A DNA stretch of 64,000 nt, taken from Octopus vulgaris (Eukaryota). Location: the NCBI GenBank assembly GCA_951406725.2, contig OX597841.1, positions 15,376,001 through 15,440,000 of the forward strand, read 5' to 3'. The notes beneath the pieces were generated by a model. The model saw only the letters and a list, made by a program, of their open reading frames with translations. It had not been told where the DNA came from and made no database searches. The first letter of the stretch is position 1; every line of letters starts with the position of its first letter. Shown here piece after piece: positions 143 through 62,620 of the stretch. Both the position numbers and the translations under genes were made by a program.

Positions 143-235
143 TAATTGGCTGATGAGCACTAAGCATCTTAAATCTGTTGTAATACTTACAACTTTTAAT
201 AAAATGATGTAGTGCGAAACGATCGTACCAAATTA
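143..235 (+). ncRNA. Type I hammerhead ribozyme motif with extended stem II (Penelope-like/retrozyme type)
   Basis: taattgg-CTGATGA(150-156)-gcacta...tagtgc-GAAAC(216-220)-gatc-GTA(225-227)-ccaaatta. Stem II gcacta/tagtgc is capped by an internal hairpin gttgtaa/ttacaac. Stem III is the palindrome ACGATCGT. Stem I taattgg/ccaaatta has one bulge. Confidence 0.8.
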
Positions 236-4480: not shown

Positions 4481-4567
4481 TATTCTCGACATATGTTTCG
4501 AAGGCTGCATATTCCTTATTCCGAAGGAATAAGGAGTACATTATGCAGATTTCTCATCAGGAAAATC
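4481..4567 (-). ncRNA. Type I hammerhead ribozyme motif
   Basis: Minus strand: gattttc-CTGATGA-gaaatctgcata...ccttattccttcggaataagg...tatgcagccttc-GAAAC-atat-GTC-gagaata. Stem III is the palindrome ACATATGT; stem I is attttc/gagaat. Confidence 0.85.
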
Positions 4568-4701: not shown

Positions 4702-4788
4702 GATTTTCCTGATGAGAAGTCTGCATAATGTACTCCTTATTCCTTCGGAAAAAGGAATATGCAGCCTTCGAAACATATGTCGAGAATA
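4702..4788 (+). ncRNA. Type I hammerhead ribozyme motif (inverted partner of 4481-4567)
   Basis: gattttc-CTGATGA(4709-4715)-gaagtctgcata...tatgcagccttc-GAAAC(4770-4774)-atat-GTC(4779-4781)-gagaata. Confidence 0.85.
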
Positions 4789-51460: not shown

Positions 51461-51591
51461 CATATATATATATATACATATATATATATAGTTAATCCAA
51501 ACATGCAAACACTAAGAGAGAGCATAACAACGCGAGGACGTGGAACAAGTATGGTGTTATTGGACGCTCAGGAAAGGAAACAAAGAAGGAG

Positions 51592-51630
51592 GATTTAACG
51601 TTTCGAGCCGGAGCTCTTCGTCAGAAACAT
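51592..51630 (-). ncRNA. Minimal Penelope-type hammerhead variant
   Basis: Minus strand atgttt-CTGACGA-a-gagc tccg gctc-GAAACGTT-aaatc. One extra A follows the core, stem II is 4 bp, and stem III is reduced to the palindrome AACGTT. Confidence 0.6.
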
Positions 51631-58929: not shown

Positions 58930-59876
58930 GTCTCGCAGAAAATACAGAACCCCAGCGATGTTGCACACCTGCAGCAGGAGTTGGACTCAATTTACAGATG
59001 GGCTGAGGCTAATAATATGCAGTTTAATGCTGGAAAATTCCAAGCCCTGCGCTACCAGCGCCCAACACTGAAGATAAAACTTACAGGGTACATTGACCAA
59101 CAGGGGATTATAATCTCAGAGCCTAAATCAGTGCGGGACCTGAGTATCGACATGAGTGATGACACCTTTTTCCAAGTGCACATTACCAGGGTGGCGACAA
59201 AGTTCAGGCGACTGGCTGCATAGATCCCGAGAACCTTCAGAACCAGTGAGAAAGAAATCATGATGGTCCTCTGGAGGATATTCGTCCTTAGCCGCCTGGA
59301 TTACTGCTCCACACTATAGTCACCCCACAGCGGACCTTGAAGCAATCCAGAGAAGATTCACAAAGAAGATCGTCTCTTTGCAACAGCTCAGCTACTGGGA
59401 AAGGTTGAAACAGTTAAGACTCTACTCCCTGGAGAGAAGGCAGGAGAGGAATGCAGTAATATACATCTGGAAGATCCTGGAAGGGATTGTGCCAAATTTT
59501 GGCATTGAAAGCTACACCAATGCTAGAACGGGTCGACACTGCACAGTGTCAAAGATCCCAGCAATACCATCGTGTTTCAGGATCAGTTACTGCAACGGGC
59601 TGGGTTTCAGGGGCTCACAGCTTTTTAATATTCTCCCAAAGATCCTGACGGACCTAAACAAAGTGGATGTAGGTGTTTTCAAACCAAAAACTGGATCTCT
59701 TCTTGTCTAGAGTACCAGGCGAACCTACCTCGCGACAGGAGGTGCAAATGAGGGTAGCCACATGAAACTCCCTAATTCACCGAATGCTACACATCAGAGA
59801 AGGATCTCAATATAATCAGTGTAGCAAAACGGTGCTGCCCCAGCTTGGCCACAGCTTCGAGCTGAAACTAATAAAA
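58930..59876 (+). mobile_element. CR1-group LINE, about 950-bp 3' fragment (end of RT to tail), with stops and frameshifts
   Basis: LQQELDSIYRWAEANNMQFNAGKFQ...VRDL...SRLDYCS...QRRFTKKI...LSYWERLKQLRLYSLERRQER...; tail ccccagcttggccacagcttcgagctgaaacta. Confidence 0.88.
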
Positions 59877-59969: not shown

Positions 59970-60129
59970 ACAGGAGTGGCTGTGTGGTAAGTAGCTTGCT
60001 TACCAACCACATGGTTTCAGGATGAGTCCCACTGCGTGGCACCTTGGGCAAGTGTCTTCTACTATAGTCTCGGGCCGACCAAAGCCTTGTGAGTGGATTT
60101 GGTAGACGGAAACTGAAAGAATCCCATCG

Positions 60130-60170
<41 letters not shown>

Positions 60171-60400
60171 TTGTGCGTGTGTTTTTGTCTCCTCACCAGC
60201 ACTTGACAACCGATGTTGGTGTGTTTACGTCCCCATAACGTAGCGGTTCGACAAAACAGACCGACAGAATAAGTATACCAGGCTTACAAAGAATAAGTTT
60301 CCTGGGATCGATTTGTTCGACTAAAATGGTGGTGCTCCAGCATGGCCGAAGTCAAAAATGCCTGAAACAAGTAAAAAAAGAAAGAATAAAAGAATAAAAG
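59970..60400 (+). mobile_element. SINE family A, full length
   Basis: Matches 2287-2698 from head to tail. Confidence 0.9.
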
Positions 60401-61141: not shown

Positions 61142-61188
<47 letters not shown>

Positions 61189-61200
61189 AGATAGATAGAT

Positions 61201-61322
<122 letters not shown>

Positions 61323-61457
61323 TCGAGAAGATTCAGCTCGGGATTGTATTTACTGCCGACTGAAACTGCGCTTGCGCGCTGAATTTTGAGAATTTATAAC
61401 ATATAATGATGGGACACGTGTTATCTTGTCTCTGAATTATAAGTTAGTTATTGAGGC

Positions 61458-61528
61458 CGGTTACTGATGAGAATTCGCCTGGCAGATAATCTTATTTGCT
61501 AAAGAAATTCGAAACCATGGTATAACCG
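61458..61528 (+). ncRNA. Canonical type I hammerhead ribozyme motif (best preserved)
   Basis: cggtta-CTGATGA(61464-61470)-gaatt...aattc-GAAAC(61511-61515)-catg-GTA(61520-61522)-taaccg. Stem I is a perfect 6 bp; stem II is 5 bp, extended by tggcagataa/ttatttgcta; stem III is the palindrome ACCATGGT. Confidence 0.9.
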
Positions 61529-61986
61529 TTAATAAAAAATAACAAGGCAAAAGTTTTTATTTTTCATTTACTTCGAAAATTGCTATTAAATCGTGGTTTT
61601 GGCCGTGTTGGCTGCTATTTCTAGCACGTAAGAATTACCTGTTAAAGGGTAGTTTTCTTTTTTGTTTAAATGTACACTATTTTAAAATATGAATATGTTG
61701 TCTATTGACTATTTATACATGCTAGGCCACTGGTGGTGATATTTATAACAAATATTCGCTACCCTATCTTATGAATATATATATATATGAGAAAGGTTGA
61801 GTTTAATTAGAAGAGGTTTACTTTGGATGTGTTCCAAAGATAGATTTCTAATAAAGATTCTTCATATTAAATTTGTAGCTTACTATTGTAAGTATTTTAT
61901 TAAAAATATGAAAATGTTACAAGTCTAAGGTATGTTATGAGTATTTATAGAGCACGTTTCCTATATATAAACTCAACAAATAATTA

Positions 61987-62620
61987 AAGATGGAGAATGC
62001 GTTTTAGTTTGGTGATGGTAGGGTCGGGACAAGGCACGACGGTCAGGCGGTAGTAGATGACGGACACGATGTACCTGTTCGCCACCTCCACCCGACCTTT
62101 TAGGGACAGTTTCTTCTCGGCCCATTGCCGGGCGGCAGTGACCACCCTACTCGTTATCTCGTTCCAGTTCTTCTCCATTTGGAGGTCCGGACCAAACCAG
62201 ACCCCGAACAACTCGACCGGTCTGTCGGTCCAGCGTCCCACGACGGAGGCACTGGTGGACGGCATAGGCTTGCTTCTCCAGGTGCCGAGTCGCAAGCCCA
62301 CTAACTTTTTCGGGTTGATTTTCGCTCCTGTCACCGCTTCGTAGTCTTTCAGTGTCTCGCCGACACGCTCGATATGCTCGTGGCTAGACACTATGACGGT
62401 GACGTCGTCCGCGTATGCAGACACGCTCGTCCCGCATCCCAATTCTCGCGGGATGCCCCTCAGAGTTTCAAGCTTCCGCAGTAGTGGCTCGAGAGTCAAT
62501 ACGTAGAGAAGCGACGAGAGGAGGCATCCCTGACGGACCGAACGTGCTATGTCGAAAGGTCTCCATAGATGTCCATTTACGCGATTTACCGAACGGATAC
62601 CTCTGTACAAAGCGGCTATA
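61987..62620 (-). mobile_element. Tx1/L1-clade LINE reverse transcriptase fragment
   Basis: Open peptide SVRQGCLLSSLLYVLTLEPLLRKL...SAYADDVTV...GAKINPKK...FGVWF...KLSLKGRVEVANRYI: RT motifs QG and YADD plus the L1/Tx1 LSL.GR signature. Confidence 0.9.

What the first reader, a model, noticed from the sequence alone, without database searches (positions are those of the whole stretch)
61458..61528. Fully canonical hammerhead, best candidate for activity
Seen: all core nucleotides are intact, stem I is a perfect 6 bp, stem II starts with a G-C pair and is extended, and stem III is palindromic (ACCATGGT). Predicted cleavage is after A61522. Inference: a young or conserved copy; if it lies in an intron on the + strand it could cut the pre-mRNA.
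Basis: partly seen in the sequence, partly recalled or inferred. Interest (0 to 1): 0.75.

Follow-up and report, generated by a model that had tools for sequence, protein, structure and literature searches.

The report
Solo retrozyme copy with intact hammerhead
This is one lone copy of a small non-coding jumping repeat found at hundreds of places in this genome; its self-cutting RNA motif is intact but is predicted to cut well only when paired with a second copy, and nothing found shows that it is young, selected or inside a gene.

Summary
The type I hammerhead at 61458-61528 is real and as described (3 such motifs in the window, 0 in 12.8 Mb of shuffles). It is the ribozyme of a ~465-bp solo copy (61322-61788) of a dispersed, ORF-less repeat family with a 474-514-bp unit. 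Copies read head-to-tail through their own junction, end in (TA)n and form two-armed inversions whose arms end at two different fixed sites (21 of 23 classifiable). This fits a non-LTR retrozyme copied by a Penelope-like element (inferred; no partner found). The stem III palindrome switches as a block (CAUG/CUAG), and the predicted dimer fold is the double hammerhead. This copy is better preserved than most (0 of 27 ribozyme-blind copies are fully canonical). But 8 other sampled copies equal it, its nearest sister is 4.6% away, and intactness is expected by chance (p 0.13-0.56). No intact same-family partner lies within 224 kb, no host exon was found, and cleavage is untested. The scan has already noted retrozyme families of this kind elsewhere in this genome. 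Verdict: new member of a known kind, low interest.

The parts
61322..61788 (+). One nearly full unit of a dispersed ORF-less repeat (retrozyme-like, Penelope-type insertion marks); solo, one-armed copy
   Evidence: Family homology spans 61321-61789 across fetched loci; single profile hit in the window
61448..61457 (+). 5' strand of the 7-bp stem I extension (61448-54) plus the GGC bulge (61455-57)
   Evidence: Pairs with 61529-35 in the predicted fold
61458..61463 (+). Stem I, 5' strand CGGUUA
61464..61470 (+). Catalytic core CUGAUGA (C3-A9)
61471..61510 (+). Long stem II: G10.1-C11.1, 5 bp, 4x4 internal loop, 9-bp hairpin; 40 nt shorter than in the long subfamily, the difference lying between direct repeats
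61511..61514 (+). Core GAAA (G12-A15.1)
61514..61521 (+). Palindromic stem III ACCAUGGU: 2 bp plus tetraloop as a monomer, predicted 8-bp helix between two copies
   Evidence: Two-strand minimum-energy fold is the double hammerhead; CAUG 46 and CUAG 30 of 100 listed family matches
61522..61522 (+). A17; predicted cut 3' of this base (GUA triplet)
   Evidence: Hammerhead numbering (established knowledge); untested
61523..61535 (+). Stem I, 3' strand UAACCG plus extension UUAAUAA
61762..61788 (+). Unit end (CCC), 14 nt of the next unit's start, then a (TA) run: the distal of the family's two 3' end sites
61142..61321 (.). (TA)n(GA)n(GATA)n microsatellite at the 5' flank (approximate bounds)

Best explanation
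This is the intact hammerhead motif of a lone, moderately old copy of a dispersed non-coding repeat, likely a non-LTR retrozyme pasted in by a Penelope-like retrotransposon and likely inert where it now sits. Shown: the motif; the family, with its 474-514-nt unit and no ORF; read-through of the unit's own end-to-start junction; (TA)n ends; two-armed inversions with two fixed 3' end sites. Inferred, for the family when it was active: more-than-unit RNA folded two hammerheads together through the ACCAUGGU (or ACCUAGGU) palindrome. It cut after GUA and was closed to a circle or kept as a multimer. A Penelope-type RT/GIY-YIG protein then nicked TA-rich DNA and primed cDNA at two internal sites, one per DNA strand. 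Predicted for this copy: it would cut efficiently in a dimer or tandem construct and weakly as a monomer. In the cell it has no nearby partner and no shown transcript.
For: Family: 1220 first-look candidates, 40 scored, best non-self 91%; 149 exact matches of a 3'-half pattern against 1 control. No ORF: 15 of 16 distinct segments that reach unit position 1 are preceded by the unit's own 3' end, not by upstream coding sequence. Two-armed insertions: 28 of 80, of which 21 pair the ~430 end with the ~514 end, 2 have two ~430 ends, 0 two ~514 ends, 5 unclassifiable. This matches the PLE tail and two RT start sites (PMC11167929, PMC8557442). Dimer: two-strand fold -44.2 kcal/mol with the 8-bp stem III, against 2 x -16.4 for monomers; 12 of 13 intact copies give the same stem III helix. 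The palindrome changes as a block, CAUG 46 and CUAG 30, with 1 CUUG and 0 CAAG intermediates among 100 listed (counted by hand). Five unrelated families in 224 kb all have an AC-N4-GU palindrome. Stem II has an A-U to G-C double change in 6 of 32 rows. The unit folds better than shuffles as a circle, z -2.7 and -5.0, 25 shuffles each. An apparently intact 781-aa RT + GIY-YIG element ending in (TA)n exists in the genome. End branch 0.028 against median 0.037.
Against: No autonomous partner shares sequence with the family: 0 of 30 GIY-YIG loci and 0 of 20 extended loci. 5' ends show no pile-up at the cut, 2 of 106 within 3 nt, so cleavage has no genomic footprint here. No tandem with two fully intact ribozymes was found among the fetched loci: L057, L037/38, L047 and L065 each have a defect. 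Units of 474-514 nt are longer than the 170-400 nt reported for retrozymes (PMC7229834). A 2-bp + tetraloop stem III can cut as a monomer in other animals (mussel ~0.1/min, axolotl Amex2 22% in 1 h; PMC7229834), and folding models ignore Mg2+ and tertiary contacts, so 'weak monomer' may be wrong. The copy is better preserved than most. The covariation rests on few lineage events.
Confidence: 0.8

Rival explanations
1. One reading: a young or selected intronic ribozyme that cuts a host pre-mRNA in cis.
For: Perfect core, G-C closing pair, 13 bp of stem I in total. 0 of 27 ribozyme-blind copies are as intact. No private change falls inside the motif. The 3' junction is also held by a run labelled with a different organism code, 133 nt with 1 difference (X19), so the insertion may be shared between labels.
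Against: Intactness is expected by chance, p 0.13-0.56. 8 other sampled copies are equally canonical. Ordinary branch length. No host exon among the 150 of 262 candidate ORFs scanned in 224 kb. Predicted monomer active fold 7e-4, falling to 1e-6 with longer flanks. No intact partner nearby.
Confidence: 0.05
2. The repeat is the 3' end (pseudo-LTR) of an autonomous Penelope-like element whose ORF-bearing copies were missed.
For: Same insertion marks as PLEs. PLE pLTRs carry dimer-type hammerheads (PMC4209133). Only about 150 family loci were examined.
Against: 15 of 16 segments reaching unit position 1 continue into the unit's own 3' end. No similarity to 50 GIY-YIG loci, which overlap in part. 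No RT-like ORF was seen next to the top 30 copies.
Confidence: 0.1
3. The solo copy is a passive target: if transcribed, abundant family RNA with the same palindrome would pair with it and cut it in trans.
For: The two-strand fold is favoured by about 11 kcal/mol. Different families carry different palindromes.
Against: No transcript of this copy or family circle is shown. The family looks old (median end branch 0.037). A bimolecular encounter in the nucleus is unlikely (inference).
Confidence: 0.05

Closest known systems
Animal non-LTR retrozymes (Cervera & de la Pena 2020, PMC7229834: passages and section 14 read; Li et al. 2026, bioRxiv 10.64898/2026.07.22.740005: part 1 of 5 and passages read, supplements not seen)
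   Same: Non-coding, low-GC (31-34%) unit with one type I hammerhead; short palindromic stem III (2 bp + tetraloop as in axolotl Amex2); head-to-tail read-through; many solo monomers; self-paired when folded as a circle.
   Different: Larger unit (474-514 nt against 170-400), long stem II with an internal loop in place of a short loop 2, mostly monomers and partial dimers, no long array found; expression, cleavage and circles not shown.
Hammerheads in Penelope-like element pLTRs (Cervera & de la Pena 2014, PMC4209133: parts 1-2 of 4 read; Frangieh et al. 2024, PMC11167929: parts 1-2 of 4 read; Craig et al. 2021, PMC8557442: passages read)
   Same: Dimer-type motif with an enlarged stem II and palindromic stem III; partial tandems, inverted truncated arms, (TA)n targets, two 3' end sites (tail).
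   Different: No ORF attached; canonical 6-bp stem I and a real 8-nt palindrome, not a minimal motif; the two end sites lie about 80-95 nt apart, against a 30-40 bp tail.

Membership tests
Type I hammerhead ribozyme | CUGANGA and GAAA core, UH cleavage site, three stems with stem I open | tested here: met
Type I hammerhead ribozyme | Match to an Rfam hammerhead model | tested here: not met
   No hit at gathering score or E<=10; probably due to the long stem II (inference)
Type I hammerhead ribozyme | Stem I / stem II tertiary contact | tested here: inconclusive
   GGC bulge (61455-57) could pair with GCC (61477-79), but both are nearly invariant in the family, and the same pairing forms an inactive fold
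Type I hammerhead ribozyme | Site-specific self-cleavage | not testable with these tools
   Bench test needed; 5' ends of copies show no pile-up at the cut, 2 of 106
Non-LTR retrozyme | Short non-coding repeat unit with one type I hammerhead | tested here: met
Non-LTR retrozyme | Head-to-tail, more-than-unit copies | tested here: met
   15 arms read through the unit junction among 80 insertions; two-ribozyme tandems at 492-509 nt spacing
Non-LTR retrozyme | Active locus: two consecutive units with complete hammerheads (criterion of Li et al. 2026) | tested here: not met
   This locus is a solo monomer; every sampled tandem has a defect in one motif. It lowers 'active locus', not family membership
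Non-LTR retrozyme | Expressed as linear and circular monomer RNA | not testable with these tools
   Only assembled contigs, none on record as RNA
Autonomous Penelope-like element | ORF with RT and GIY-YIG endonuclease | tested here: not met
Penelope-type insertion | Partial tandems, inverted truncated arm, (TA)n target, two 3' end sites | tested here: met
   Family level. This copy shows the (TA)n end and the distal end site only

The most novel reading that the evidence does not exclude
The 8-nt stem III palindromes act as family-specific pairing codes (four different ones among five families in 224 kb, plus a CAUG-to-CUAG block switch within this family). Intact solo copies such as this one, when they lie in host transcripts, are cut in trans by the matching retrozyme RNA through a double hammerhead, with the stem I GGC bulge docking on the stem II GCC loop.
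Probability: 0.05. Interest if true: 0.7.

Novelty: new member of a known kind. Interest (0 to 1): 0.2.

Why it matters
As it stands it matters little: it adds one more retrozyme-like family to a genome in which such motifs are common (6 in 224 kb). The family is useful in two ways. It records Penelope-type insertion clearly, with two fixed priming sites, one per arm. It also gives a natural compensatory switch in the dimer helix. This copy is the most compact fully canonical version sampled, so it is a convenient bench substrate. It would matter more if solo copies in host transcripts were cut in trans by family RNA.

Tried and rejected
Rfam: no hammerhead match. Repeat finder on the window: swamped by microsatellites. 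Autonomous partner: no similarity to 30 GIY-YIG loci or 20 extended loci. Host gene: 150 of 262 candidate ORFs from the repeat-masked 224 kb were scanned; only an RT fragment passed, plus one weak hit under cut-off. Short exons would be missed, so intron versus intergenic stays open. RNA: no RNA holder listed on record. The guessed-RNA run X1 holds family contigs but had no cover at 61476-61519 or the 3' junction at 97% likeness; this is no evidence either way. One search was dominated by the neighbouring LINE fragment. Cleavage footprint in 5' ends: none. Idea that the extra 40 nt of the long subfamily is an intron: rejected, its ends do not give the short form; it is a partial duplication plus a copy of the downstream ATTACCTGTTAAAGGG stretch. 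Idea that second-round cDNAs stop at the cut: not supported, since L170, L037/38 and L057 cross it. The frequent repeat at 59971-60390 near family copies is a separate abundant repeat with no fixed position or orientation. Look-ups of earlier notes near the window and by sequence gave nothing relevant.

Full report
Observation. Stem I extends by a further 7 bp beyond a GGC bulge. A strict descriptor finds 3 motifs in the window and none in 200 shuffles totalling 12.76 Mb. Rfam does not detect it.

What it sits in. The motif lies inside a ~465-bp repeat copy, 61322-61788, between a (GATA)n run and a (TA) run. A DNA search of the 2.8-Gb own genome gave 1220 first-look candidates, of which 40 were scored; the best non-self match was 91%. 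Exact patterns gave 36, 149 and 112 places, with 0-1 in the controls. The unit is about 474 nt (short subfamilies) or up to 514 nt (long subfamilies, with 40 extra nt in stem II). The extra 40 nt are a partial duplication plus a copy of a downstream stretch.

No ORF belongs to the unit. Of 16 distinct segments that reach unit position 1, 15 are preceded by the unit's own 3' end. There is no similarity to 30 GIY-YIG loci or to 20 extended ones. The genome does hold an apparently intact 781-aa element with a GIY-YIG domain over cut-off and an RT hit just under cut-off. Two copies are 99% alike over 4 kb, and it ends in (TA)n. It is a plausible but unproven motor.

Insertion marks. I examined 80 insertions picked by a motif outside the ribozyme (84 loci, 4 duplicates dropped). 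3' ends cluster near unit positions 430 and 514 and run into (TA)n. 28 insertions are two-armed inversions: 21 pair one end of each kind, 2 have two proximal ends, none has two distal ends, and 5 could not be classed. For 21 of 23 at even odds the binomial p is about 3e-5 (my arithmetic). The lead came from earlier notes; the count is mine. It agrees with the two RT start sites and tail of a Penelope-like element in vitro (PMC11167929, parts 1-2 of 4 read) and with the tandem and inverted layouts in PMC8557442 (passages read). 5' ends are scattered: 2 of 106 lie within 3 nt of the predicted cut, so there is no genomic footprint of cleavage.

How the ribozyme would work. As a monomer, stem III is 2 bp plus a tetraloop. 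The predicted share of the active fold is 7e-4 for the minimal motif and about 1e-6 with 100-150 nt of flank; these models ignore Mg2+ and tertiary contacts and probably understate it. Two strands fold, as their minimum-energy state, into the double hammerhead: -44.2 against 2 x -16.4 kcal/mol. 12 of 13 intact copies give the same 8-bp helix. The palindrome is kept through change: CAUG 46 and CUAG 30 of the first 100 of 149 matches, with one CUUG and no CAAG (hand count). Five unrelated families within 224 kb all have an AC-N4-GU palindrome (one poor AT-rich hit set aside). On 32 aligned copies 90.5% of cells pair, and stem II has an A-U to G-C double change in 6 rows, probably one event. The literature says such motifs work best as dimers (PMC4209133, parts 1-2 of 4 read). 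It also reports monomer cleavage for 2-bp stems in mussel and axolotl (PMC7229834, passages and section 14 read), so monomer activity is not excluded.

Is this copy special? It is well preserved. 0 of 27 ribozyme-blind copies that span the motif are fully canonical, 2 of 27 if the closing pair may differ. Its nearest-neighbour distance of 4.6% is within the best quartile among 96 copies (median 6.2%). But 8 others among 53 spanning copies pass the same test, all from the set chosen on an intact 3' half. Its end branch is 0.028 against a median of 0.037. It has 6 rare alleles in 419 columns, none in the motif. At 1.4-2.8% private change, an untouched motif has p 0.32-0.56 for 40 sites and 0.13-0.36 for 71 sites; at the family median rate, 0.22 and 0.07. 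It lies between the long/CAUG and short/CUAG clades. Its 5' part is nearest a short copy and its 3' part nearest long copies. None of the 8 other matches to its short stem II has both C11.1 and CAUG. It is thus a rare intermediate or a one-off recombinant, not a member of a young burst. A 133-nt contig of run X19 (organism code D) bridges its 3' junction with one difference. The insertion therefore exists under that label; whether that is another species than the window's is unknown.

Context. The only other family traces in 224 kb are a partial copy on the minus strand about 38 kb downstream and a plus-strand copy about 81 kb downstream; neither passes the descriptor. No host exon was found (150 of 262 candidates scanned), so the intron idea is open but unsupported. 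Expression could not be judged.

Comparison and novelty. It works like, and at family level belongs with, animal non-LTR retrozymes, which bioRxiv 10.64898/2026.07.22.740005 (part 1 of 5 and passages read; supplements not seen) treats as non-autonomous derivatives of Penelope-like elements, many of them solo monomers. It differs in unit size and in the long stem II. Four paper searches found no description of an octopus retrozyme; PMC6962438 (passages read) lists 235 hammerhead-1 hits in giant squid. Earlier notes of this scan describe the same kind of element elsewhere in this genome, one with a 493-nt unit; I could not tell whether that is this family. Verdict: a real motif in an ordinary setting; new member of a known kind; interest 0.2.

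Noticed in passing
window 146-231 (+), 4482-4566 (-), 4703-4787 (+); about 66569 (-) and 83811 (+) in window coordinates, just past its end (L120, L121): Four further, unrelated families of long-stem-II type I hammerheads with stem III palindromes ACGAUCGU, ACAUAUGU, ACCUAGGU and ACAAUUGU; the 4482/4703 pair is a two-armed inversion.
   Followed up: partly
L100-L105, e.g. L100:745-3087 and L103:3850-3900 in element orientation: Apparently intact, young 781-aa RT + GIY-YIG Penelope-like element (two copies 99% alike over 4 kb) with a ~1-kb 3' tail ending in (TA)n and a hammerhead-like motif with core UUGAUAA and palindrome ACAUGU.
   Followed up: partly
window 61993-62600 (-): Fragment of a very abundant non-LTR retrotransposon with a YADD motif; Pfam RVT_1 E 3e-13. 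Unrelated to the ribozyme.
   Followed up: partly
window 58930-59800 (+): Decayed stretch that looks like a LINE reverse-transcriptase 3' end (by eye, recalled resemblance); no Pfam hit for two frames.
   Followed up: no
window 59971-60390: Very abundant SINE-like repeat found beside many family copies in either orientation.
   Followed up: no
window about 51590-51624 (-): Minimal hammerhead-like motif CUGACGA...CGAAAC of a different repeat, also seen in the flanks of L018 and L022.
   Followed up: no
L142, L158, L174, L184, L212, L219: The leading partial unit of more-than-unit copies often starts at unit position 363-376, the same A-rich stretch that appears copied into the long stem II; possibly a template-switch hot spot.
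   Followed up: partly
short subfamily, e.g. L004-L029: The larger short subfamily spread with G-U in place of the usually conserved G10.1-C11.1 pair (28 of 32 aligned rows).
   Followed up: no
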